Assembly: GCA_031289285.1 (NCBI GenBank)
Contig: JAITPT010000143.1
Span: 1-38,705, forward strand
Reading direction: 5' to 3'
DNA length: 38,705 nucleotides
Source of the DNA: Puniceicoccales bacterium
Lineage (GTDB): Bacteria > Verrucomicrobiota > Verrucomicrobiia > Opitutales > UBA953
Shown one piece after another: positions 13,380 through 31,857 of the stretch; positions within the stretch are counted from its first letter, which is position 1, and each line of letters opens with the position of its first letter. The notes below the pieces were generated by a model, which worked only from the letters and a program-made list of their open reading frames with translations, ran no database searches and was not told the origin of the DNA. Made by a program: the position numbers and the translations under genes.

Positions 13380-14648
13380 TTATCCGCAGCCGGTGCCGGT
13401 GCCCTTGCAGGAGAAACCGCAGCCGGAGAAACGACGGGCGAGGACAGGAGGCATGGGCTTGTCGTTAAAAACGACATCGAGGCCGTCTTCTATCATGCCC
13501 TCCATTTCAATCACACGCACACCACGCGCCTCAAGGGCACGCTTGGGCTGGGGGCCAGCAGCAGAGACGAGCAAGGCACGGCAATCATGCAGGATGTCGC
13601 CAAACTCAGCCCAACGGGCAGGACCGGCACCGGGTTCGGGAGCACGGCGGGTCTCGATGTATTTGAAACCGGAAGGCGTCTCGGCGTCTTGGCGAAAAAC
13701 CAGCACACGGGCAGCTTCGCCAAGATGCTGGTTCACGAGCATCCCCTCCTGCGAAGCAACCGCAATGTAAGGACGAGCCGAGAGGTCGGCCTCGGGACGC
13801 GAGAAACGCGCCAACGCGCCAAGATGCTCCGGCGTCATCCCCTCGTCAATGAGACCGACGGCATCGGCGCGACAACGGGCGCAGTGCGTCATCTGCGGCA
13901 GGTGGCGTTCGGCGAGCAGGCGCGTGCCCGCGACGAGCTTGGCGTCGGGCGGCGGGAGGTCTTCAAACACAGCGCCCTCGACAGGCAAAAACGCCATGCA
14001 GTTCATGATGTCGGCACCGAGAGCGGCGACGGTTTTGGCGACTTCGCCGATGTGGCTGTCGTTCACGCCGGGCATGATGATGGTGTTAATTTTCACGACA
14101 ATCCCCCGCTCCTTGAGCTGGCGCACGGCGTCGAGCTGGCGGTCGAGAAGAAGCTGGGCGGCGGGAATGCCGCGCATGGGGCGGTGGCCGTCGCGCACCC
14201 ATGCGTAGATTTTTGCGCCGATGAGCGGGTCAACGGCGTTGATGGTGATGGTGACGTGGCTGACTTCGAGCGCGGCGAGCGCGGCGATGTGCGGGCCGAT
14301 GGCGAGGCCGTTTGTGGCGAGACACAGGAGTATCTGCGGGTGGCGGCGGCGGACGGCGGTGAGCGTGGCGAGGGTCTCCTCGGCGTTGGCAAACGGGTCG
14401 CCCGGGCCGGCGATGCCGACGACTGCGATGTTCGGGACGCGCCGCAGCACGTCGTCGAGGTAATCGGCGGCGCGTTGCGGGGCGAGGACGGCACTCGTGA
14501 CGCCCGGGCGGCTCTCGTTCATGCAGTCAAACTTGCGGTTGCAGAAGTTGCATTGGAGGTTGCAACGCGGGGCGACAGGCAGGTGGACGCGCCCGTGTGT
14601 GTGGTGAGAGTCTTTGTTGAAACAGGGATGTTGACTCAGGTCTATCAT
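13380..14648 (-). CDS. nifB: FeMo-cofactor biosynthesis radical SAM protein NifB with C-terminal NifX-like domain
   Basis: Contains HPCFN, the radical SAM motif CNLQCNFCNRKFDC, GIAGPGDP, THCARCRADAVG, and then a NifX/NifB-C-like domain (YIAVASQEGMLVNQHLGEA...). The tail is GCGFSCKGTGTGCG. Confidence 0.95.
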   Translation of the reverse strand: MIDLSQHPCFNKDSHHTHGRVHLPVAPRCNLQCNFCNRKFDCMNESRPGVTSAVLAPQRAADYLDDVLRRVPNIAVVGIAGPGDPFANAEETLATLTAVRRRHPQILLCLATNGLAIGPHIAALAALEVSHVTITINAVDPLIGAKIYAWVRDGHRPMRGIPAAQLLLDRQLDAVRQLKERGIVVKINTIIMPGVNDSHIGEVAKTVAALGADIMNCMAFLPVEGAVFEDLPPPDAKLVAGTRLLAERHLPQMTHCARCRADAVGLIDEGMTPEHLGALARFSRPEADLSARPYIAVASQEGMLVNQHLGEAARVLVFRQDAETPSGFKYIETRRAPEPGAGPARWAEFGDILHDCRALLVSAAGPQPKRALEARGVRVIEMEGMIEDGLDVVFNDKPMPPVLARRFSGCGFSCKGTGTGCG

Positions 14649-14675
14649 GCGTTTGGTAGGTCTCCGTGTTGGTGG

Positions 14676-17555
14676 TTAAAGGTAGGAATAGCCGACCTCG
14701 GAGGCGGCTTGTTTGCGCTCAAGGACGGCGTTGACGATGCGGTCAAAAAGTGACTGTGCGCCGGCGTAGCCGACGTGGAGGACGCGCTGGCCGCCGATGC
14801 GGTCGTGAATGGGGAAGCCGCAGCGCACGAGCGGCACGCCGAGGCGTCGGGCGAGCGCTTGCCCCTTACTGGAGCCGAGGAGGAAGTCGGGGCGTAGCGT
14901 CGCGGCGTCGGCTTCGATTTCGGAAAAGTCTGCGCCCTCGCGCACGAGGATTTTTCCTGTGGTCTCGGGGGCGACGTCGGCGATGGCGGCGGCGAAACCT
15001 CCGCTACGCCCGCCGCTGGCGCACAGCACAGGCGTGACGCCGATTTCGGCGAGCAATGCGGCGAGGCCGACGACGAGGTCTTCCTCGCCATAGACGACGG
15101 CGCGTTTCTCGAAAATGTATTTGTGGCCGTCCACCCACGAGTCGGTGAGACGCCCGCGCTCGGCGGCGAGCGGCGCGGGGATTTGCGGCAGGCCGGCGAG
15201 CGCGGCGAGGACGCCGAGGAAGCGGTCGGTCTCGCGCACGCCTATGGGCATACCGAGGCGGTGCGCGGCGACGCCGCAGCGCGAGGCGAGCACGGTGGCG
15301 GCGGTGGCTGGGGCGTAGGCGAGTGTGCGCCCGAACTCGACGGCGGCGGCGGCGTTGGCGAGGGCGCGGATGTCGGCGACGGCGGTTCCGCCAGCGGGAA
15401 GTTTCTGGTAGTCCGCCCAAGAGGGGCCGTCGAGGGTGTCGCTGTAATCGGGCAAAATCGTCGGGCTGATGTCGAAGTAGCCAGCGATGCGGCGCAATTC
15501 GCGCAGGTCAGCAGGCGAGAGCATTCCGGGGAAAAGCGCGACGGGGCGGGCGGCGGTTGGCGCGGTTGGCGCGGCGGCGTTGTCGGCGGTGGCGGCGGTG
15601 TCGGCGGTGGCGGGCGCGGCGAGTGTTTCCACGAGTGCGCGGACGGCTTTGTGGAAACCGTTGGCGTGTGTGCCGCGATAGCTCGCGCAAGAGACGGAGA
15701 CAATAGGCGGGATGGCGACGCCCTCGACGCCGGCGGGGTGCTCTTCGTGGAAGTCGTGCAGGTGCCCGGCGAGGTTTTCGCCTATGGTCTCGCTGAGGCA
15801 AGTGGTGGCGAGGCCGACAAGCTCTGGTTTGTATTGGCGGATGACGTTTTCGAGGCCGATGCGGACGTTCAGCCCGCCGCCAAAAATCGCGCTGGACTCC
15901 GAGAAGTTGGAGGCGGCGATGTCCATCGGTTCGCGGAAATGGCTGATGACGTAGCGCCGGATGTAGGTGGCGCAGCCTTGCGAGCCGTGGAGAAAAGGTA
16001 TCGCGCCACGCACTCCGCGAAACACGAGACAGGCACCAAGCGGGGTGCAGAGTTTGCAGGCGTTGGTGGTGGCGTTGGGGTAGGTGGCGGCAGCGCGGGC
16101 GCGGGCGACAGGCACTCGACGCGGCGGCGGCGGGACGGCGGTGGCAACGGCAACGGCGGCGGCGGCAACGGCGTTGGCGGCGGCATTTGCGCGGCGCGGG
16201 GTTTGTTGCCAGACGGGCGAGAGCACGCTGGCGCGGACTTCGCGGGCGAAGTTCACCATGCCGACATAGCCCGCGAGTGCCTCTTTGCGCTCGTGGTTGT
16301 GGTCGCAAAAACCTATGCCGAGTTTGTAGGCGATGGGGCGTTCTTTGACGCCGCCGATGAAGAGGTCCACGTCTTTTTCGAGGCAAAACTTGGCAAGCTC
16401 GAGCGGGTTGGAGTCGTCAACGATGATGGTTCCCGGGTCGCACATTTGGCGCAGCAGCGCGTAGTCCTCTTTGTCGCCAGTCTGCGTGCCGACGAGCGCG
16501 GTGGTCATCCCAAGTGTGCGCAGGGCGCGGACGAGCGAGAAGGCTTTGAACGCGCCGCCGACGTAGATGGCGGCCTTTTTGCCCGCCAGCTCGGCGCGGA
16601 TGCGGCGTAGCTCCGGCATGACGGCTTCGATTTCCGAGCGCACGAGTGTTTGCGTGCGGGCGGGCAGTTCGGGGTCTTGCGCGGCGAAAAAAGCGGCGGT
16701 CTCGTAGAGCGCGGCAGACACGTCTTCGATGCCGAAAAACGAGACGCGCTTGAACGGGATGCCGTGCTGCGCCTCCAACATTTTGGCGAGGGGCGTCATC
16801 GAGCCGGAGCATTGCACGAGGTTGAGTTTCGCGCCGTGGCAGCGGCGGATGGCGTCAACACGCCCGTCGCCCGTGAGGGTGGCGACGATGTGGACGCCCA
16901 TGCGCGTGAAGTAGTCGCGCACAATCCATGTCTCGCCGGCGATGTTGAAGTCGCCGAGCAGGTTGATGCTCACGGGCGGGATGTCGGCGGTGTCGCCACT
17001 GCCGACGAGCCGCCACAGGGCATCGCAGGCAGCGCGGTAACCCGTTTTTTTTGTGCCCTTGAAACCTTCGGACGCGACGGGGATGACGGGGATACCGGTG
17101 TCGGCAGCGACGCTTTTGCAGACGGCCTCCACGTCGTCGCCGATGAGGCCGACGATGCACGTGGAATAGACGAATGCGGCCTTGGGGGCGTGGCGGGCGA
17201 TAAGCTCGCGCAGGGCAGCGCCAAGTTTTTTTTCGCCGCCGTAGATGACATCGAGTTCGCGCAGGTCGGTGGAAAAGCTGTTACGGAAAAGTTGTGGGCC
17301 GCTGCTTTGCGCACCGCGGATGTCCCATGTGTAGGCGGCGCAACCAATCGGGCCGTGGACGAGGTGGAGGGCGTCGGCGACGGGATAGAGGATGACCCGC
17401 GAGCCGCAAAACGCGCAGGCGCGTTGGGTGACGGAGCCAGCGAGGCTGTTGCGGTCGCAGGCAAGCGGCGCGGCGGTAGCAGGGTTGTTTCCGGCAACAG
17501 TGACGGAGGCAGCGCGGGCGGGCAAAATGCTGATGGTGTCGGCGACGGCGGTCAT
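14676..17555 (-). CDS. nifEN: Fused nitrogenase cofactor scaffold NifE-NifN (959 aa)
   Basis: The N-terminal half is NifE-like (CAFCGSRVILYPVADALHLVHGPIGCAAYTWDIRG). An Ala/Pro-rich linker (about nt 16040-16200) follows, then a NifN-like half (CKLCTPLGACLVFRGVRGAIPFLHGSQGCATYIRRY). It is a single open frame. Confidence 0.93.
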   Translation of the reverse strand: MTAVADTISILPARAASVTVAGNNPATAAPLACDRNSLAGSVTQRACAFCGSRVILYPVADALHLVHGPIGCAAYTWDIRGAQSSGPQLFRNSFSTDLRELDVIYGGEKKLGAALRELIARHAPKAAFVYSTCIVGLIGDDVEAVCKSVAADTGIPVIPVASEGFKGTKKTGYRAACDALWRLVGSGDTADIPPVSINLLGDFNIAGETWIVRDYFTRMGVHIVATLTGDGRVDAIRRCHGAKLNLVQCSGSMTPLAKMLEAQHGIPFKRVSFFGIEDVSAALYETAAFFAAQDPELPARTQTLVRSEIEAVMPELRRIRAELAGKKAAIYVGGAFKAFSLVRALRTLGMTTALVGTQTGDKEDYALLRQMCDPGTIIVDDSNPLELAKFCLEKDVDLFIGGVKERPIAYKLGIGFCDHNHERKEALAGYVGMVNFAREVRASVLSPVWQQTPRRANAAANAVAAAAVAVATAVPPPPRRVPVARARAAATYPNATTNACKLCTPLGACLVFRGVRGAIPFLHGSQGCATYIRRYVISHFREPMDIAASNFSESSAIFGGGLNVRIGLENVIRQYKPELVGLATTCLSETIGENLAGHLHDFHEEHPAGVEGVAIPPIVSVSCASYRGTHANGFHKAVRALVETLAAPATADTAATADNAAAPTAPTAARPVALFPGMLSPADLRELRRIAGYFDISPTILPDYSDTLDGPSWADYQKLPAGGTAVADIRALANAAAAVEFGRTLAYAPATAATVLASRCGVAAHRLGMPIGVRETDRFLGVLAALAGLPQIPAPLAAERGRLTDSWVDGHKYIFEKRAVVYGEEDLVVGLAALLAEIGVTPVLCASGGRSGGFAAAIADVAPETTGKILVREGADFSEIEADAATLRPDFLLGSSKGQALARRLGVPLVRCGFPIHDRIGGQRVLHVGYAGAQSLFDRIVNAVLERKQAASEVGYSYL

Positions 17556-18277
17556 TGGGCGGGTGGCGGGTGAGTAGCGGCGGCGGTGGGAGCGGGAGCA
17601 GCGGCGGCGTTGTCAGCGACGGCGGTGTCGGCGACGGCGGTGTCGGTAACGGAAGTGGCAGTGGGTAATATATCGCGGCGCAGGACGACCCACTCGGAGA
17701 GCGGGGCGGCACCTATGGATTGGTAGAAATCGAGCGCGGGCTTGTTCCATTTGAGGGCACGCCATTCGAGACGGCTGCAACCTTGGGCGGCGGCGGCGTC
17801 GGCGGCGGCGTTGAGCAGTGCCATGCCGACGCCTTTGCGGCGCAGAGCGGGGCGCGTGTAGAGGTCTTCAAGAAACGCACCGGCGCGTCCGGCAAAAGTC
17901 GAATAGGTAGGATACCACACGGCGAAACCGGCGGGGATGCCGTGGTAGAGCGCGAGGTGGGCAAAGGCGAGCGGCTTTTCGCCGAAAAAGTGAGCGGCGA
18001 AGGCTTGCGGAGTTGACTCTATCTCGTGCGAGAGGCTCTCGTAAGCGGCAAGCTCACAGACCATTTGCCAGAGCAAAACGGCGTCGCCACGCACGGCGGG
18101 GCGGACGCGAATGGCTGGGCGGGCGGGGTCGTTGTCGGGGCGGTTTGCGGCGGCGCGGAGATTTGCGAGCGAGGCGGGGTTACACGCGCAACCCGCCAGA
18201 CTCGCGGCGGCGCAAGCGCTCGCTTCGATGCCGCAGGCGGCGGTGGGTGGCGGGTTGTCGTTGCGTGGCGTTTCCAT
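17552..18277 (-). CDS. GNAT family N-acetyltransferase (diamine/SSAT-like subfamily) with Cys-rich N-terminal extension, embedded in the nif operon
   Basis: GNAT core IRVRPAVRGDAVLLWQMVCELAAYE...LEDLYTRPALRRKGVGMALL...LEWRALKWNKPALDFYQSIGA. N-terminal extension with C15-x6-C22-x7-C30-x-C32. The start lies 19 nt after the nifK stop, and the stop overlaps the nifEN start (ATGA). Confidence 0.85.
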   Translation of the reverse strand: METPRNDNPPPTAACGIEASACAAASLAGCACNPASLANLRAAANRPDNDPARPAIRVRPAVRGDAVLLWQMVCELAAYESLSHEIESTPQAFAAHFFGEKPLAFAHLALYHGIPAGFAVWYPTYSTFAGRAGAFLEDLYTRPALRRKGVGMALLNAAADAAAAQGCSRLEWRALKWNKPALDFYQSIGAAPLSEWVVLRRDILPTATSVTDTAVADTAVADNAAAAPAPTAAATHPPPAQ

Positions 18278-18296: not shown

Positions 18297-19670
18297 CTAC
18301 ATCACCAGTTCGAACCATTCCTCGGCACAGGAACGGTCTTTTTTATCGAAGAGTGCACTTGTTATCATGTCTATCAGACGCAACGCGCCTGTGTAGCCGA
18401 CAGTCGGGAAAAAGCGGTGCCCGACACGGTCTAAAATCGGGAAGCCGACACGCACTAACGGGATGTCTTCAACCCGCGCTATATACTTCCCGTAGGTGTT
18501 GGAAACTATCAGGTCAACGGGTTCGTTCTTTATCCATTGATGTAACTCAAAAAAGTCGGACTGTTGTTTTATTTTCGCCTCTGGAACAACTGGGTCGAGC
18601 AATTCATGGAGACGTTTTTCAAAGTGATTTCCGAGACTTCCTGTGATTACATAGACAGGCTTCATCCCAAGCTCGAGGAGGAACTGCGTGTGTGCAATAA
18701 CTTGGTCGGGGTCGCCCGCGACGGCGACTCGCTTTTGGTGGAAGTATTGCTGCATGTCGCTGATGGCGTCTATAAGGCGGGCGCGGTCTGTCTCGATTTG
18801 CGCCGCGACTGCGCCGTCTTTAGAGAAAGCGCGGAGTGTCTGTATAAAAGCGTCAGTTGCGCCGACGCCTATTGGCAATTCGAGCAAGGTGGCGGGGACG
18901 TTGTGCTTCGTCTCCAAGGTGAGTGCGCCCGGGTGCCCAGTGAAATGGCCGAGGCCGATTGTGGCTTGGCTGTCGCCTGTGCTGCGGATTTCTGGCAGCG
19001 TAGTGCCGCCTTTGGGAAACATCTCGTAAGTGCCGTCGAGGCCGCCGTCGAGCACTCCCGATGTATCAGGAAGCAAGACATTTGCGACGCCCATCAGGTT
19101 GGCGAGACGTTTGATTTCGCGCATGTCGGCGGGTTCGACAAAACCCGGGATAATGTTGATTTGCTCCTTGGGCGAACTTTTCTCCGAAAGGTATTTTATG
19201 ATAGCACTCACCATGTTTGAAAAGCCAGTGATGTGCGAACCGACAAAGCTGGGAGTGTTGGCGTGTATAACGATTTTCCCCTCTGGAACAACGCCTTCTT
19301 CGGTGGCGCGTTTGACAATCGTCGGGATGTCGTCGCCGATGACTTCGGAGAGACAAGTCGTGTGGACGGCGACGATGTCGGGATTATAAATCGTGAAGAT
19401 GTTGCGGAGCGCTTGCGTCAGATTGGCGAGACCGCCAAAGACCGACGCGCCCTCCGTAAAAGAGCTTGTTGTAGCGACAACTGGCTCTTTGAAGTGGCGC
19501 GTGAGGTGCGAGCGGTGATAAGAGCAGCATCCCTGCGAACCGTGGCTGTGCGGCATACAGCCGTGGATGCCCAGAGAGGCATACATAGCACCAATGGGCT
19601 GGCAGGTTTTGGCGGCGTTCACGCGAAGCGCTTTTCGTTCGACGATTTCGGCGGTAGTGGCGTTGAGCAT
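18297..19670 (-). CDS. nifK: Nitrogenase MoFe protein beta subunit (short N-terminus type)
   Basis: From ATG 19670: MLNATTAEIVERKALRVNAAKTCQPIGAMYASLGIHGCMPHSHGSQGCCSYHR. Length is 457 aa. The longer track ORF would overlap nifD and reads through the C/A-rich leader. Confidence 0.96.
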   Translation of the reverse strand: MLNATTAEIVERKALRVNAAKTCQPIGAMYASLGIHGCMPHSHGSQGCCSYHRSHLTRHFKEPVVATTSSFTEGASVFGGLANLTQALRNIFTIYNPDIVAVHTTCLSEVIGDDIPTIVKRATEEGVVPEGKIVIHANTPSFVGSHITGFSNMVSAIIKYLSEKSSPKEQINIIPGFVEPADMREIKRLANLMGVANVLLPDTSGVLDGGLDGTYEMFPKGGTTLPEIRSTGDSQATIGLGHFTGHPGALTLETKHNVPATLLELPIGVGATDAFIQTLRAFSKDGAVAAQIETDRARLIDAISDMQQYFHQKRVAVAGDPDQVIAHTQFLLELGMKPVYVITGSLGNHFEKRLHELLDPVVPEAKIKQQSDFFELHQWIKNEPVDLIVSNTYGKYIARVEDIPLVRVGFPILDRVGHRFFPTVGYTGALRLIDMITSALFDKKDRSCAEEWFELVM

Positions 19671-19750
19671 ATTGTGTGTGTGTTGTTTTGTTGTTGTTTG
19701 TTGTGTTGCTTTTTTGTTAAAAAGAGTGTATGTTAAGTGTGTGTTAAAAG

Positions 19751-21514
19751 TTATCCACGTTTCCAATTTTTTGCGGCACCTTCATCTTCGAAGCCACCGC
19801 CGCGAACGCGCGGCCTATAGACGGGTTTGGGCGGGACGGTGGGGTCGCTTTTCCAAGGAGCAGTGACAAGTCGCCAGACTTTTGTGTTCACCATGCGGTC
19901 TATTTCCTTGTAGAAATTCCCCGCTCCCGTGAAGGCTGCGTAGGGGCCGCTGTAATCGTAGCTGTGCAGCTGTTTGCACGGCACACCGAGTTTCTCTATG
20001 ATGAACTTCTCTTTTATCCCGGAGCCGATGACATCCGGCTTGTAGATTTCTATGAGCTTCTCCATTTCGTGGTGCGAAATATCGTCTATCACAAGACTCT
20101 CTTTGCGCATCTCTTTCATCATGCCTTCGTAGTCGCGGAAAGAAAATCCGCCAGCTTCCAACGCAGCTTTTTGCTCCTCCGTTTTGCGCGGACGGTAGCG
20201 TGTGGGGTCGGCTTCGACGGTAAGTTCCTCGATGTTACGCGAGTCGGCGTCAATTTTTATAGTGGGGAGGACATCGCGGCCTTCGTAGTCGTCGCGGTGT
20301 GCAAACTCATAGCCAGCAGCGATAACGGTCATTCCGATGTCGCGGAAGAGGTCTTGATAATGGTGTGCGCGCGAGCCGCCGACAAAGAGCGCGGCGGTTT
20401 TTCCGGCGCAGCGCGATTTGACGTCGTCCATGATGGGGCGCAGCACCGACAACTCTTGTGCGATAACTTCTTCAACACGGTCGGTGAGTTTTTTACTGTC
20501 AAAAAACTTTGCGATTTTTCGCAGCGATTTTGCGGTTGAGTTAGCGCCTATGAAGTTCACTTTGAACCAGGGAATACCGAACTTTGTTTCCATCATATCC
20601 GCCATGTAGTTAATCGAGCGGTGGCATTGCACGACGTTGAGGTCAACGGTGTGCGCCTTCACAACTTGCTCGTAAGAAATATCGCCGGAGAGTGTGGCGG
20701 TGACATGTATGCCGCATTTGCGCAACAGTGTGTCAATCTCCCAAGCGTCGCCGCCGATGTTATATTCGCCGAGCATGTTCATACGAAACTCGGCGTCGTC
20801 GGGCGTGTCGTCAAGACCGACCATGTGTTTGAAAACGCCGTTGTTTGCGATGTGGTGCCCAGCGGATTGGGAGACGCCTTTGTAACCTTCGCAAGAGAAA
20901 CCGAAAACGTTAATTCCGAGTTCCGCTTTTGCGAGGCGGCAAACGGTGTGGATGTCGTCGCCGATGAGGCCGACTGGGCAAGTCGCATAGACAGCGATGG
21001 CTTTGGGTTTGAAAATTTTGTATGCTTCGCGAATGGCGGCGGCAAGTTTCTTTTCGCCGCCGAATATAATCTCGTCCTCCATCATATCGGTTGTCATAGA
21101 GTATTGGAGATAGTTGACATCTCCCGGGCGCGGGCGGGCGAGATTGCGGCGCGTCTGCCATGAATAAAACGAACAGCCGATAGGGCCGTGCGTTATGTGG
21201 AGCACGTCGTGCATCGGGCCGATAACGACGCCTCTACAGCCGGCGTAAGTGCAGCCGCGCTGGGTGATTATTCCCGGAACGGTGCGTGTGTTGGCCGCGA
21301 TAGGCTGCGGGCTTTCCGGGTCGTTGAGAAGAAATTGTTTAGCGCGTTTTTTCTTTGTTTTATCTGGATAAATCTCAATCATCTTCTCGCGCGCCTCGGC
21401 GGCGTTAATCGAGGCGGCGTGTTCGGCGGAACTGCCGGGCGGTGGCGGCGCAAGTGCTTCGGTGTCGGTGGCGTCAGAAACGCCGGATTCTGGTTCTGGA
21501 CTAATAGAGGACAT
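19751..21514 (-). CDS. nifD: Nitrogenase MoFe protein alpha subunit (with anaerobe-type ~50-aa insertion)
   Basis: CTYAGCRGVVIGPMHDVLHITHGPIGCSFYSW, and LNVVQCHRSINYMADMMETKFGIPW (the cofactor Cys region). Insertion EADPTRYRPRKTEEQKAALEAGGFSFRDYEGMMKEM. About 35 aa of N-terminal extension. Confidence 0.96.
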   Translation of the reverse strand: MSSISPEPESGVSDATDTEALAPPPPGSSAEHAASINAAEAREKMIEIYPDKTKKKRAKQFLLNDPESPQPIAANTRTVPGIITQRGCTYAGCRGVVIGPMHDVLHITHGPIGCSFYSWQTRRNLARPRPGDVNYLQYSMTTDMMEDEIIFGGEKKLAAAIREAYKIFKPKAIAVYATCPVGLIGDDIHTVCRLAKAELGINVFGFSCEGYKGVSQSAGHHIANNGVFKHMVGLDDTPDDAEFRMNMLGEYNIGGDAWEIDTLLRKCGIHVTATLSGDISYEQVVKAHTVDLNVVQCHRSINYMADMMETKFGIPWFKVNFIGANSTAKSLRKIAKFFDSKKLTDRVEEVIAQELSVLRPIMDDVKSRCAGKTAALFVGGSRAHHYQDLFRDIGMTVIAAGYEFAHRDDYEGRDVLPTIKIDADSRNIEELTVEADPTRYRPRKTEEQKAALEAGGFSFRDYEGMMKEMRKESLVIDDISHHEMEKLIEIYKPDVIGSGIKEKFIIEKLGVPCKQLHSYDYSGPYAAFTGAGNFYKEIDRMVNTKVWRLVTAPWKSDPTVPPKPVYRPRVRGGGFEDEGAAKNWKRG

Positions 21515-21627
21515 GTTGTTGTGTGTGTTGTTGTTAAGTGTGTGAGTGAGTGAATAAATGCAAGTTGTCGGTGATGAAAAAAAAGAGGTGTAAAAAATGG
21601 AGTTGGTGGGTGCATCTGGTGCGAATT

Positions 21628-21715
21628 AAAACAACAGAAGGCGCGGGAGAAATTCTTTCCAAAGAAATTTCGGCAAACGGATTTCTGTTCACAATCCCCG
21701 CGCCTTTTGTTGTTA
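21628..21715 (-). terminator. Long intercistronic stem-loop between nifH and nifD (possible attenuator or mRNA-stability element)
   Basis: aacaacagaaggcgcggga (21630-21648) pairs with tccccgcgccttttgttgtt (21695-21714), 18 of 19 bp. The loop holds a second near-palindrome, gaaattctttccaaagaaatttc. On the mRNA the 3' arm runs into UGUUGUUUUAAUU. Confidence 0.55.
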
Positions 21716-21746
21716 AATTATCAGCACAAGCCGCGTTTTTTTGTTT

Positions 21747-22643
<897 letters not shown>

Positions 22644-30587: not shown

Positions 30588-31622
30588 TCAGTGTTTGCGA
30601 CGGCGTAGGACACAGAGATCTTTCGGCCAATCGGCGGAAATCTCCGCATCTGCGTCGGCAAACGGGATGGGTTTGCAACCCGAGCGGCGGTTGGTCTCGC
30701 GAGTGTATTGCGCCAAGATTGCGCCCACAAACTTTGCGTCACCAATGGCACCGCCACGTGTGAACTGCGTGGCCGTCGTAAGCAGACGTTCCGAGTGGGA
30801 AAGTTTCCCGCCAGAAGCCGCGACAGCTTGGGCGGCTTCGGGAGTGATGCGGGCGGCGGACGGGTCGCCACGTTTTGCCGTCGCGCCCTTGCCAAACAAC
30901 ACAACGCGGTAGGTATCCAGCATCTCTTCGTCGCTGAGATTGTCGGAGGAAACTGCATAGCGGAGATTGCGGCGCATCGTGCCCTTGCTACCCGTTGCCA
31001 CGGCTTCGGCGTAGCCGCACCAACGGTAGTCTTTCGGGTCTGCGACAATGCGCGCACGGACGGGGTTGAGGTCAATGTAGGCGGCGGCACTTTCCATCGC
31101 GAAGAACTTGTCGCTCTGCACGAGAGTGCTCGAAAACCGCTCTGACCAAAGTGTTCCAAAACGTTCGTGTGTGCGGTTATACCAGATGGAAAACCGTTGC
31201 TTAAAGGTCTTCATGAACTCGGAGACATCGCCCATGCGACGCAGCATTTGCTTGCGCCACGCCTCGGCCTCTTCGTCGTTCTTCTTGAGCATCTCGGCGA
31301 GCACCTTGACATCGGCGGGTGCCCATTTCGTGGGCTTGGGATAAAGCACGGAGTAACGACGCAGCAGTTCTGCATCGGAGAGTTCGCCCTGTTCTGGCAC
31401 TCTGACGAGCACATGGAAATGGTTCCCCATAAGGGCGTATGTCACGACTTGGACGCCGCAGAAGTCTGCGACTTGGTGGAGTTGTTTTTGCATGATGTCC
31501 TTCTCGGCGTCGGAGAGGAAAATCTCTCCATTGACTGTTCGAGACACGCAATGAAAAACGCTGACTGAGCCGCTGGCCTTTATCCGGCGGGCACGTTGGT
31601 GTTTGGTTCTATGTTTTGGCAT
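30588..31622 (-). CDS. REP-associated-type Y1 (HUH) tyrosine transposase, IS200/IS605-like domain with long C-terminal extension
   Basis: From ATG 31622: MPKHRTKHQ... It has the HUH motif GNHFHVLV, the catalytic Tyr region AAAYIDLNPVRARIV, and WSERF. Length is 344 aa. Confidence 0.85.
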   Translation of the reverse strand: MPKHRTKHQRARRIKASGSVSVFHCVSRTVNGEIFLSDAEKDIMQKQLHQVADFCGVQVVTYALMGNHFHVLVRVPEQGELSDAELLRRYSVLYPKPTKWAPADVKVLAEMLKKNDEEAEAWRKQMLRRMGDVSEFMKTFKQRFSIWYNRTHERFGTLWSERFSSTLVQSDKFFAMESAAAYIDLNPVRARIVADPKDYRWCGYAEAVATGSKGTMRRNLRYAVSSDNLSDEEMLDTYRVVLFGKGATAKRGDPSAARITPEAAQAVAASGGKLSHSERLLTTATQFTRGGAIGDAKFVGAILAQYTRETNRRSGCKPIPFADADAEISADWPKDLCVLRRRKH

Positions 31623-31857
31623 AAGGATGAGTTCAGTTGGTTTGGGCAAAAGTGATGTTCGTCGCGAAAAAAAATGAAAAGTTAAGGATGAGTCAAGAGC
31701 CTTTTTTAACCTGGTTAAAAAATTGGAATCGGAGGGGTCGGTGTTTGGGCATGAGGATGATTTCTGGTTTGTTTGGACAGAAGAGTAATGTTCGGCGCAG
31801 GCGAAAATGAAAAGTGGAGGGGGAGTCAAGAACTTTTTTTAGCCTGGTTAAAAAATG
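31613..31857. repeat. Tandem duplication (~115-bp units, ~75% identity) of the transposase 5' end plus upstream region
   Basis: Unit A is 31613-31725 and unit B is 31741-31857. Both contain the MPKHR start on the minus strand, TTGACT, and the box ttttttWRcctggttaaaaaat. Unit B encodes only MPKHRPLRFQFFNQVKKGS. Confidence 0.8.

What the first reader, a model, noticed from the sequence alone, without database searches (positions are those of the whole stretch)
17552..18277. GNAT acetyltransferase with a four-Cys N-terminal extension, translationally wired between nifK and nifEN
The GNAT gene starts 19 nt after the nifK stop, and its stop overlaps the nifEN start in an ATGA. It must therefore be co-transcribed and probably co-translated with the nitrogenase genes. 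Its core resembles the diamine/SSAT-like GNAT subfamily (RRKGVGMAL, LEWRALKWNKPALDFYQSIGA). It also carries about 55 extra N-terminal residues with the pattern CX6CX7CXC and an Ala/Thr-rich tail. To my knowledge the accessory acetyltransferase seen in some nif clusters is the hexapeptide-type serine acetyltransferase NifP/CysE, not a GNAT. The gene occupies a slot in an operon that otherwise holds only the minimal nifHDKENB set and has no nifI1/nifI2. Possible roles, all speculative: lysine acetylation of nitrogenase components, polyamine or amino-acid acetylation linked to N status, or detoxification.
Basis: partly seen in the sequence, partly recalled or inferred. Interest (0 to 1): 0.7.

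Follow-up and report, generated by a model that had tools for sequence, protein, structure and literature searches.

The report
Nitrogenase-operon acetyltransferase with cysteine-rich head
A small acetyl-transfer enzyme gene sits between the nitrogenase structural genes and the cofactor-assembly genes, and the same arrangement recurs across nitrogen-fixing Verrucomicrobia, so it is probably an undescribed accessory gene of nitrogen fixation whose target is still unknown.

Summary
A 241-aa GNAT gene (17552-18277) starts 19 nt after nifK. Its stop overlaps the nifEN start in ATGA. It carries C15-x6-C22-x7-C30-x-C32 ahead of an SSAT/thialysine-type GNAT core.

- Every close homologue with readable context lies directly after nifK, usually before nifE. 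This covers about 16 distinct Opitutales loci, including TAV5, EW11 and Termitidicoccus-like sequences.
- A second, larger clade of 166-aa proteins without the Cys head occupies the same slot in other MAGs.
- The 78 next-best genome homologues, all outside Opitutales, are not nif-linked and lack the Cys head.

The nif-linked proteins keep the catalytic Glu/Asp and Tyr and the RxxGxG CoA loop. They share diagnostic substitutions, notably Lys/Arg where all other family members have Asp/Glu.

The Cys head must be translated. ATG 18277 is the only canonical start upstream of strand β1, and Cys codons vary synonymously across orthologues.

I read it as a nif-dedicated acetyltransferase with an altered, non-polyamine acceptor. 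The Opitutales Cys head is a probable metal or redox module. Substrate and role are inferred, not shown. I found no paper describing it.

The parts
21747..22571 (-). nifH, first gene of the operon
   Evidence: TIGR01287 446 bits, above the 394 cutoff; PF00142
19751..21514 (-). nifD
   Evidence: TIGR01282 655.5 bits, above the 653.55 cutoff
18297..19766 (-). nifK. This is the longest ORF. The database copy is 457 aa, so the real start is probably near 19670.
   Evidence: TIGR01286 447.9 bits, above the 427.3 cutoff; P0121 is 457 aa at 100% identity
18278..18296 (-). 19-nt A/T-rich spacer between the nifK stop and the GNAT start (TAAGCGCCATAAATAAACA). It holds no promoter- or terminator-like site.
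17552..18277 (-). nif-linked SSAT-type GNAT acetyltransferase, 241 aa plus stop
18182..18235 (-). Cys-rich module, residues 15-32 (C15-x6-C22-x7-C30-x-C32). It is preceded by a 14-residue leader (18236-18277) and followed by a linker with a predicted helix at residues 34-44 (18113-18181).
   Evidence: The motif is conserved in Opitutales orthologues as MCxNxxxC...C[TN]CGG or CxCG...CxC variants. Cys codons vary TGC/TGT. No Pfam match. AF2 pLDDT is below 50.
17666..18112 (-). GNAT catalytic domain, residues 56-204. It has E137/D138, Y185 and R146-x-x-G149-x-G151. The subfamily-specific residues are Y122, T124, F135, R147, R173, K176 and L199.
17555..17665 (-). Low-complexity Ala/Thr/Pro C-terminal tail, residues 205-241. 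It is specific to this genome and partly encoded by a 15-nt x 3 tandem repeat (17601-17652).
   Evidence: AF2 pLDDT is low
17552..17555 (-). ATGA overlap of the GNAT stop (TGA) and the nifEN start (ATG)
   Evidence: The same stop/start overlap with nifE is seen in L090, L112, L113 and L114.
14676..17555 (-). Fused nifE-nifN, 959 aa
   Evidence: TIGR01283 638 bits for residues 23-456. TIGR01285 317 bits for residues 495-945, just under that model's 326.8 cutoff. NifEN model 714 bits.
13380..14648 (-). nifB, last gene of the operon
   Evidence: TIGR01290 371 bits, above the 343.65 cutoff

Best explanation
The gene encodes a catalytically competent, acetyl-CoA-dependent N-acetyltransferase of the SSAT/thialysine branch of the GNAT superfamily. 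This branch has become a dedicated component of the nitrogenase gene cluster in Verrucomicrobiota.

**Expression (inferred).** It is transcribed with nifHDK. Its translation is coupled to nifEN through the ATGA overlap.

**Distinct subfamily (shown).** The nif-linked proteins form their own subfamily. They keep the catalytic acid/base residues and the CoA loop. The acceptor side is remodelled: Lys/Arg replaces the family-wide Asp/Glu at position 176, there is an extra Arg/Lys at 147, and Phe replaces Tyr at 135.

**Acceptor (my inference).** The acceptor is no longer a polycationic polyamine. It is more likely a neutral or anionic amine, most likely a small amino-acid-type metabolite whose pool is tied to active nitrogenase or ammonia assimilation. 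The enzyme would then act as a metabolic or detoxifying helper during N2 fixation.

**Cys head (partly shown, partly inferred).** In the Opitutales lineage, which includes this window, the enzyme has additionally acquired an N-terminal four-Cys module. I infer that it binds a metal or Fe-S centre and modulates or localises the enzyme. It cannot be needed for the core role, because the sister clade lacks it.

**Status of the steps.** Shown: gene reality, family, conserved linkage, subfamily signature and translation of the Cys segment. Inferred: co-transcription, acceptor class, metal binding and physiological role.

**Confidence.** The figure of 0.5 is for the whole picture including the inferred steps. 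The shown part (a real, nif-dedicated SSAT-type GNAT subfamily) I would put near 0.9.
For: **Family and fold**
- PF00583 at E=5.5e-16.
- PDB sequence hits 12jc and 2fe7 at E about 4e-35, with the alignment covering residues 56-202.
- The AF2 core has pLDDT about 90. Foldseek's top hits are 2fe7, NATA1/2, SSAT2 and SSAT1.

**Catalytic residues**
- E137/D138 align to hSSAT E92/D93 and Y185 to Y140. R146xxG149xG151 is conserved.
- The roles of E92 and Y140 are taken from PMC4964394.

**Linkage**
- Among the best 80 species-representative genome loci, only the 2 Opitutales loci are nif-linked.
- TAV5 has nifHDK-GNAT.
- L085-L091 have draG-draT-nifHDK-GNAT-nifE-N-B.
- In the metagenome scan, the 9 loci closest to the query are the nif-linked ones; 7 of the 8 that hold the gene's 5' end carry the Cys head.
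- EW11 has the same order.
- Clade B loci L112, L114 and L115 have the same slot.

**Subfamily signature**
- Position 176 is K in 100% of clade A and R in 100% of clade B (120 of 120 search hits). It is D in 84% of the non-nif set and never K or R there.
- The nif-linked clades group together in 50 of 50 NJ bootstraps. The four non-nif Puniceicoccales sequences (P0010, P0024 and P0028/L108) nest inside clade A in every replicate, and other non-nif sequences intrude in a minority of replicates.

**Translation of the Cys head**
- There is no in-frame ATG, GTG or TTG between codon 1 and codon 62.
- An ATG directly precedes the first Cys in 23 orthologues.
- TGC/TGT variation occurs at each of the four Cys positions.

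**Retention**
- The gene is kept in the minimal 7-gene operon of this window.
- It stays with nifHDK in TAV5 although nifEN is not adjacent there.
Against: - No biochemical or expression data exist for any member. I found no paper that mentions it.
- The gene is not universal. One related cluster, L111 (NifK 72% identical), goes nifK to nifE with a 12-nt gap and no GNAT.
- In Geminisphaera colitermitum TAV2 an IS insertion separates nifK from an N-terminally truncated copy. This suggests dispensability in at least some settings.
- Close non-nif paralogues exist in Puniceicoccales, so the family is not exclusively nif-associated.
- AF2 gives no confident structure for the Cys head, and no known metal-binding family matches it.
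- The interpretation of position 176 rests on alignment to hSSAT.
Confidence: 0.5

Rival explanations
1. It is a protein acetyltransferase. It acetylates a lysine or the N-terminus of a Nif protein (NifH, NifDK, NifEN) or an acidic electron donor. This would give a post-translational control or maturation step beside, or instead of, DraT/DraG. In this reading the Lys/Arg substitutions bind an acidic protein surface, and the Cys head docks or senses redox.
For: - The gene sits between the structural and the assembly genes and is translationally coupled to nifE(N) in several lineages.
- The window's operon has no draT/draG nearby.
- Nitrogenase subunits are reported as acetylated in a Zymomonas acetylome under N2-fixing conditions. 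That paper (PMC8600466) was only listed, not read in full.
- The charge reversal at 176 and 147 would suit an acidic partner.
Against: - All characterised close relatives (44% identity and below) act on small amines or amino acids.
- Most relatives have both the GNAT and draT/draG, so it does not replace them.
- No domain typical of bacterial protein lysine acetyltransferases is present.
Confidence: 0.22
2. It is a hitch-hiking housekeeping GNAT. A generic thialysine/diamine acetyltransferase landed after nifK in an ancestor and has been carried along by operon inertia, with no specific role in nitrogen fixation.
For: - The gene is absent from one related cluster (L111) and disrupted by an IS in TAV2.
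- Non-nif paralogues nest inside the clade.
- The family is huge and generic: 22,415 representatives at E<=1e-3.
Against: - The gene is retained at the same slot across two deep clades, with NifK only about 70% identical between them.
- It is kept in the stripped-down operon of this window.
- It is kept next to nifHDK when nifEN is not adjacent, as in TAV5.
- The nif-linked subfamily has fixed diagnostic residues, whereas paralogues that left the operon lost K176 (A, S or N at that position).
Confidence: 0.13
3. Its main role is non-enzymatic metal or cluster handling. The Cys-rich head binds an Fe-S or Mo-containing species and delivers or stores it for NifEN/NifDK, as a functional analogue of NifQ or NifX/NafY. 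The GNAT domain would serve as a scaffold.
For: - Four invariant or nearly invariant Cys lie within about 20 residues at the extreme N-terminus.
- The gene lies immediately upstream of, and is coupled to, nifE(N).
- In clade B loci a TOBE (molybdate-binding type) gene occupies the space just before the GNAT (L112 and L115).
- No nifQ or nifX/nifY family turned up among the window ORFs scanned around the operon.
Against: - Clade B holds the same operon slot without any Cys head, so the shared function is not Cys-based.
- The catalytic residues are strictly conserved, which argues for an active enzyme.
- The motif matches no known metal-binding family.
Confidence: 0.1

Closest known systems
Bacterial SSAT-like thialysine/'probable' N-acetyltransferase (PDB 12jc and 2fe7; 2fe7 is from Pseudomonas aeruginosa)
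   Same: - The full GNAT domain aligns, about 44% identity (residues 56-202; E about 4e-35).
- Same fold, CoA loop and catalytic Glu/Asp and Tyr.
   Different: - These proteins have no N-terminal Cys module and are about 160 aa.
- The 78 next-best genome homologues outside Opitutales, to which this type belongs, are not nif-linked.
- The aligned 12jc/2fe7 sequences read LEWSVLDWN, with Asp at position 176 where this protein has Lys.
- In the non-nif set as a whole, position 135 is Tyr (here Phe) and position 147 is Gly (here Arg).
Eukaryotic SSAT1, SSAT2 (thialysine N-epsilon-acetyltransferase) and plant NATA1/NATA2
   Same: - Same subfamily by sequence (E 1e-14 to 1e-23) and by Foldseek.
- General base E92 and general acid Y140 are conserved (roles from PMC4964394).
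   Different: - Identity is only 25-32%.
- The substrates there are polyamines, thialysine, ornithine and lysine.
- hSSAT1 has Glu where the nif proteins have Lys/Arg.
NifP/CysE, the serine O-acetyltransferase found in some nif clusters
   Same: It is an acetyl-CoA-using enzyme encoded inside nif clusters (general knowledge of cyanobacterial and Azotobacter clusters).
   Different: - It has an unrelated fold (left-handed beta-helix with hexapeptide repeats) and does O-acetylation of serine for Cys and Fe-S supply.
- No hexapeptide family matches this protein.
DraT/DraG ADP-ribosylation switch of NifH
   Same: It is a nif-adjacent post-translational modification system. This would be a functional parallel only if the GNAT modifies Nif proteins.
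   Different: - The chemistry and the folds are different.
- draT/draG co-occur with the GNAT in most relatives, so the two are not alternatives.
HaaN, cyclophane-RiPP N-acetyltransferase (NCBIfam NF041716; the best NCBIfam hit)
   Same: Weak GNAT-level similarity over residues 57-200 (56 bits).
   Different: - The score is far below the 250-bit cutoff.
- No RiPP maturase or precursor lies nearby; the neighbours are nif genes.

Membership tests
GNAT superfamily (Pfam PF00583 Acetyltransf_1) | Profile match above the curated cutoff, and the GNAT alpha/beta fold | tested here: met
   59.3 bits against a 20.7 cutoff. The AF2 core has pLDDT about 90 and Foldseek probability 1.00 to many GNAT structures.
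GNAT superfamily | Acetyl-CoA pyrophosphate-binding loop Q/R-x-x-G-x-G/A | tested here: met
   R146-R-K-G149-V-G151. R146, G149 and G151 are invariant in both the nif-linked and the non-nif sets.
SSAT / thialysine-type subfamily | Closest sequence and structure neighbours are SSAT-type enzymes | tested here: met
   12jc and 2fe7 at E about 4e-35, followed by NATA1, SSAT2 and SSAT1. Foldseek gives the same ranking.
SSAT / thialysine-type subfamily | Catalytic general base (hSSAT E92) and general acid (hSSAT Y140) | tested here: met
   E137 (Asp in 80% of clade B) and Y185 align to E92 and Y140. Their roles come from PMC4964394.
SSAT / thialysine-type subfamily | Acidic residue at the L-[DE]-W-N position of strand beta6 (hSSAT E131; D in bacterial members) | tested here: not met
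   K176 here. The position is K in 100% of clade A and R in 100% of clade B. It is D in 84% of non-nif homologues, with no K or R. Whether this residue defines substrate class was not tested.
SSAT / thialysine-type subfamily | Acetylation of polyamines or thialysine | not testable with these tools
   This needs an enzyme assay.
HaaN RiPP N-acetyltransferase (NF041716) | Score above the equivalog cutoff | tested here: not met
   56.3 bits against a 250 cutoff.
Aminoglycoside AAC(6') families (NCBIfam) | Score above the curated cutoffs | tested here: not met
   21-26 bits against cutoffs of 140-320.
NifP/CysE serine O-acetyltransferase | Hexapeptide-repeat left-handed beta-helix domain | tested here: not met
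   Only GNAT families match in Pfam.
Known Cys-rich metal or Fe-S modules (any Pfam family) | Profile match of the N-terminal 30-73 residues | tested here: not met
   There were no meaningful hits even at E<=10, for four variants of the head.
Proposed nif-linked GNAT subfamily (defined here) | Position directly downstream of nifK, plus the signature Y122, T124, F135, [RK]147, [KR]176, L199 | tested here: met
   The window protein has every one of these residues and the position.

The most novel reading that the evidence does not exclude
The four-Cys head binds an oxygen- or redox-labile Fe-S (or Mo/Fe-S) centre. This turns the enzyme into a sensor-coupled acetyltransferase that acetylates a nitrogenase component or its electron donor. 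It would be a previously unknown acetyl-based switch or protection mechanism for nitrogenase in microaerophilic Verrucomicrobia, operating alongside or instead of ADP-ribosylation.
Probability: 0.1. Interest if true: 0.85.

Novelty: new variant of a known kind. Interest (0 to 1): 0.6.

Why it matters
Accessory genes of nif clusters are thought to be largely catalogued, and that catalogue comes from Proteobacteria, Firmicutes and cyanobacteria. Here, a catalytically intact acetyltransferase with its own sequence signature sits in a fixed slot between nifK and nifE across a whole, poorly studied diazotroph lineage that includes termite-gut, soil, wood and freshwater Verrucomicrobia. That points to an unrecognised requirement or control point of nitrogen fixation in these organisms.

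The idea is directly testable, because cultured strains carry the gene (Opitutaceae TAV5, EW11, Termitidicoccus). If the gene matters for activity, it would also bear on 'minimal nif gene set' definitions used for in-silico diazotroph calls and for transplanting nitrogenase into other hosts. The window's operon is essentially nifHDKENB plus only this gene.

Tried and rejected
- **Structure prediction of the Cys head.** I ran two AF2 jobs, one on the window protein with an 18-sequence alignment and one on the short form P0018 with 28 sequences. Both left the head below pLDDT 50. This says nothing either way about metal binding.
- **Pfam scan of four head variants at E<=10.** Only noise came back.
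- **NCBIfam naming.** HaaN, AAC(6') and STAT all fall far below their cutoffs and were rejected.
- **Internal promoter or terminator around the GNAT.** Pattern hits are at background level (18 found against 14 ± 3.8 expected) and none lies in the junctions.
- **Alternative downstream start that would skip the Cys segment.** Rejected. There is no ATG, GTG or TTG before codon 62, and codon 62 is already inside the fold.
- **Genome-collection scan.** Its counts are therefore lower bounds. I recovered those genomes by exact-protein look-ups.
- **Literature.** Nine searches and several full-text look-ups found no description of a GNAT in verrucomicrobial nif operons. Cabello-Yeves 2017 (PMC5673642) compares these operons without the terms 'GNAT' or 'acetyltransferase' appearing in the text. 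The Wertz 2012 TAV2 paper is not held.
- **First tree script.** It timed out. I redid it with a lighter NJ and 50 bootstraps, which is a rough tree rather than a maximum-likelihood analysis.
- **Unbiased prevalence estimate.** Only three clusters were reached through NifK rather than through the GNAT. Two have the GNAT and one does not. That is too few for a frequency.

Full report
**1. What is in the window**

The feature lies on the minus strand. The ORF 17552..18277(-) encodes 241 aa.

The genes upstream are:
- nifH (21747..22571)
- nifD (19751..21514)
- nifK (18297..19766; the database copy is 457 aa)

The genes downstream are a fused nifE-nifN (14676..17555, 959 aa) and nifB (13380..14648). 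All were identified with Pfam and NCBIfam. nifH, nifD, nifK and nifB score above their equivalog cutoffs, as does the nifE part of nifEN. The nifN part (317 bits against a 326.8 cutoff) and the fused-NifEN model fall short of theirs.

The nifK stop is followed by 19 A/T-rich nucleotides and then the GNAT ATG. The GNAT TGA overlaps the nifEN ATG as ATGA at 17555-17552. Promoter- and terminator-like patterns in the region are at background level and none lies in the two junctions.

Outside the operon the neighbours are unrelated:
- thiG, an FAD amine-oxidase-like gene, an SDR and a ketoacyl synthase on one side
- glycogen phosphorylase on the other

The operon is therefore nifHDK-GNAT-nifEN-nifB and nothing else. 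No draT/G, nifI, nifV, ferredoxin or nifX family matched any of the flanking ORFs scanned.

**2. The protein**

- **Residues 56-204** are a confident GNAT domain: PF00583 at E=5.5e-16 and AF2 pLDDT about 90.
- **Nearest solved relatives.** These are a bacterial 'thialysine acetyltransferase' (12jc) and the P. aeruginosa protein 2fe7, both at E about 4e-35 and about 44% identity over the whole domain. Plant NATA1/2, human SSAT2 and SSAT1 follow.
- **Catalytic residues.** The CoA loop R146-x-x-G149-x-G151 is conserved. So are the residues aligned with the hSSAT general base E92 (E137, with D138) and general acid Y140 (Y185). Their roles are taken from PMC4964394.
- **Rejected names.** NCBIfam offers only sub-threshold names: HaaN at 56 bits against a 250 cutoff, and AAC(6') types. 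I reject all of them.
- **Residues 1-55.** There is a 14-residue leader, then the Cys module C15-x6-C22-x7-C30-x-C32, then a short predicted helix.
- **Residues 205-241** are a low-complexity tail found only in this genome. It is partly encoded by a 15-nt x 3 tandem repeat.

**3. Is the Cys segment real protein?**

- There is no in-frame ATG, GTG or TTG between codon 1 and codon 62. Codon 62 lies inside strand β1/helix α1 of the fold, so a complete enzyme must include the Cys segment.
- In 23 orthologues the protein begins M-C. Their consensus is MCxNxxxC-x(7-12)-C[TN]CGG.
- Termite-gut and EW11-type orthologues carry variants such as CxCG...C...CxC.
- Each of the four Cys positions is encoded by both TGC and TGT in different orthologues. 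That is amino-acid-level conservation with synonymous drift.
- The module matches no Pfam family.
- AF2 does not fold it. This is uninformative for a possible metal site with so shallow an alignment.

**4. Genomic neighbourhoods of homologues**

*Clade A, with the Cys head (Opitutales)*
- Opitutaceae TAV5: nifH-D-K-GNAT, followed by unrelated genes.
- Geminisphaera colitermitum TAV2: nifHDK, then IS-type genes, then an N-terminally truncated GNAT.
- Three independent metagenome lineages: draG-draT-nifH-D-K-GNAT-nifE-nifN-nifB, followed by ferredoxin and nifV.
- Opitutaceae EW11: the same order.
- A Puniceicoccales MAG and an uncultured Opitutaceae MAG.
- Nine of 16 metagenome loci. These are the nine closest to the query, and seven of the eight that hold the gene's 5' end carry the Cys head.

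*Non-nif homologues*
- The other 78 of the 80 best species-representative genome loci are 41-52% identical and come from a wide range of phyla outside Opitutales (mostly Proteobacteria). None has a nif neighbour or a Cys head.
- The same holds for the 7 weaker metagenome loci.
- Within Puniceicoccales there are close paralogues without a Cys head, and the two whose context I could read are not nif-linked: P0028 and P0024.

*Starting from NifK instead of the GNAT*
- One related cluster has no GNAT (L111).
- One has it (EW11).
- One revealed a second clade (L112).

*Clade B*
- A search with the L112 protein returned 120 proteins at 65% identity or more. Most are 166 aa and none has a Cys-rich N-terminus.
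- Two further look-ups (L114, L115) show nifA-draG-draT-nifH-D-K-(TOBE)-GNAT-nifE-nifN-nifB-ferritin-like-101aa-nifV.
- Three more clade B proteins share contig lengths with NifK hits (151308, 47235 and 15573 bp). This suggests the same linkage.

*Junctions.* The stop/start overlap with nifE recurs in L090, L112, L113 and L114.

**5. A distinct subfamily**

I compared 17 nif-linked with 86 non-nif sequences, and then clades A and B with 92 others.

| Position | nif-linked | Other homologues |
|---|---|---|
| 122 | Y | F |
| 124 | T | N |
| 135 | F | Y |
| 147 | R/K | G |
| 152 | R | K |
| 176 | K (100% of A), R (100% of B) | D in 84%, never K or R; hSSAT has E |
| 199 | L | Y |

All 120 clade B search hits have R at position 176. 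All Cys-head proteins in the list have K there. The clade A-like proteins without a Cys head have A, S or N at that position, including the two shown not to be nif-linked.

In a rough NJ tree, clade B is monophyletic in 50 of 50 bootstraps. Clades A and B group together in every replicate. The four non-nif Puniceicoccales sequences (P0010, P0024 and P0028/L108) nest inside clade A in all 50, and other non-nif sequences intrude in a minority of replicates.

The exhaustive profile search shows that the wider family is very large: 22,415 representatives at E<=1e-3. Only two of the best 150 representatives cover the Cys part of the profile. The Cys head is therefore a narrow, lineage-specific addition.

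**6. Interpretation**

Shown:
- The gene is real and its product is catalytically equipped.
- It belongs to the SSAT/thialysine branch of GNATs.
- It has been a fixed part of verrucomicrobial nif clusters long enough to evolve its own signature.
- The Opitutales branch added a conserved, translated four-Cys head.

Inferred:
- **Co-transcription and translational coupling**, from the junction geometry.
- **An acceptor other than a polyamine.** A family-wide acidic residue next to the W-N of β6 is replaced by Lys/Arg, and a further basic residue appears in the CoA loop. I favour a small neutral or anionic amine or amino-acid-type metabolite linked to nitrogenase activity or ammonia assimilation, with confidence of about one half for this overall picture. 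My reason is that every characterised relative is a small-molecule enzyme.
- **Metal or redox binding by the Cys head.** It would act as an accessory, since clade B performs the shared role without it.

Rivals:
- Protein acetylation of a Nif component or electron donor (0.22).
- A hitch-hiking housekeeping gene (0.13). This is supported by the loss in L111 and the disruption in TAV2. It is opposed by slot conservation, the sequence signature and retention in a minimal operon.
- A mainly metal-handling role for the head (0.10).

**7. Novelty**

The fold and the enzyme family are well known. What seems new is the conserved nif-operon membership, the subfamily signature with charge reversal, and the Cys head. 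My searches of the held literature found no mention of any of these. A paper comparing verrucomicrobial nif operons contains neither 'GNAT' nor 'acetyltransferase' (PMC5673642). I classify the finding as a new variant of a known kind, of moderate to good interest. It is directly testable in cultured strains.

**8. Limits**

- Only three clusters were sampled independently of the GNAT.
- The tree is NJ only.
- Structural mapping of the diagnostic residues rests on sequence alignment, not on coordinates.
- No expression or biochemical data exist.

Noticed in passing
window 18297-22571 versus 13380-18277: There is a sharp composition step exactly at the nifK/GNAT junction. nifH, nifD and nifK have GC 0.53-0.54 and GC3 0.61-0.64. 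GNAT, nifEN, nifB and the flanking glgP have GC 0.63-0.67 and GC3 0.73-0.81. No such step exists in TAV5, L085, EW11 or L114. This may reflect a recent replacement of nifHDK by recombination or transfer, or a peculiar codon bias.
   Followed up: partly
window 14676-17555: nifE and nifN are fused into one 959-aa ORF here. The L001 Puniceicoccales MAG may have the same fusion. In most relatives they are separate genes.
   Followed up: partly
L112 9394-9633; L115 7793-8029: In clade B clusters a 78-79-aa TOBE (molybdate-binding type) gene sits between nifK and the GNAT. L114 has a TOBE gene at the far end of the cluster instead.
   Followed up: no
L084 8285-10510 (Geminisphaera colitermitum TAV2): IS-type genes (Y1_Tnp, DUF4096) are inserted between nifK and the GNAT. 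The remaining GNAT ORF (169 aa) has an unrelated N-terminus and lacks β1/α1 and the Cys head, so it is probably a pseudogene.
   Followed up: partly
L081 (Opitutaceae TAV5, CP007053 223654-244322): nifHDK-GNAT is followed by AraC-type regulators and glycoside hydrolase genes rather than by nifEN/nifB. The assembly genes are therefore not adjacent, while the GNAT stayed with the structural genes.
   Followed up: no
L114 (GCA_035504945.1, 262-kb contig); P0260: A clade B nif-GNAT cluster sits on a large contig of a MAG labelled Candidatus Aquilonibacter (phylum Vulcanimicrobiota). Another member is labelled Limnocylindrales. This is either horizontal transfer of the whole cluster or mis-binning.
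   Followed up: no
L085 15269-15577; L088 16460-16942; L111 13526-13834 and 15214-15756; L114 13543-13848 and 14974-15540: Two conserved ORFs without any Pfam family recur in these nif clusters. One is 101-102 aa and lies after nifB. The other is 134-188 aa and lies after nifV.
   Followed up: no
L093 3540-3983: A nif-linked clade A GNAT has no recognisable Cys motif or start codon pattern in its upstream in-frame sequence. This may be a frameshift, an assembly error or a real loss.
   Followed up: no
L108 2056-2547 (P0028); L110 2784-3404 (P0024); P0010, P0011, P0017, P0023, P0025: Some Puniceicoccales-type paralogues nest within the nif clade, keep R173, have lost K176 (A, S or N) and have no Cys head. 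The two with readable context are not nif-linked. They look like copies that left the operon.
   Followed up: partly
window 30588-31829: A 413-aa ORF contains an IS200-like Y1 transposase domain (PF01797, E=2.5e-8). It lies next to a DEAD_2/helicase gene.
   Followed up: no
window 17601-17652: A 15-nt unit (GCGACGGCGGTGTCG) repeated about 3 times encodes the TDTAVADTAVAD part of the GNAT C-terminal tail. The tail is absent from all orthologues aligned.
   Followed up: yes
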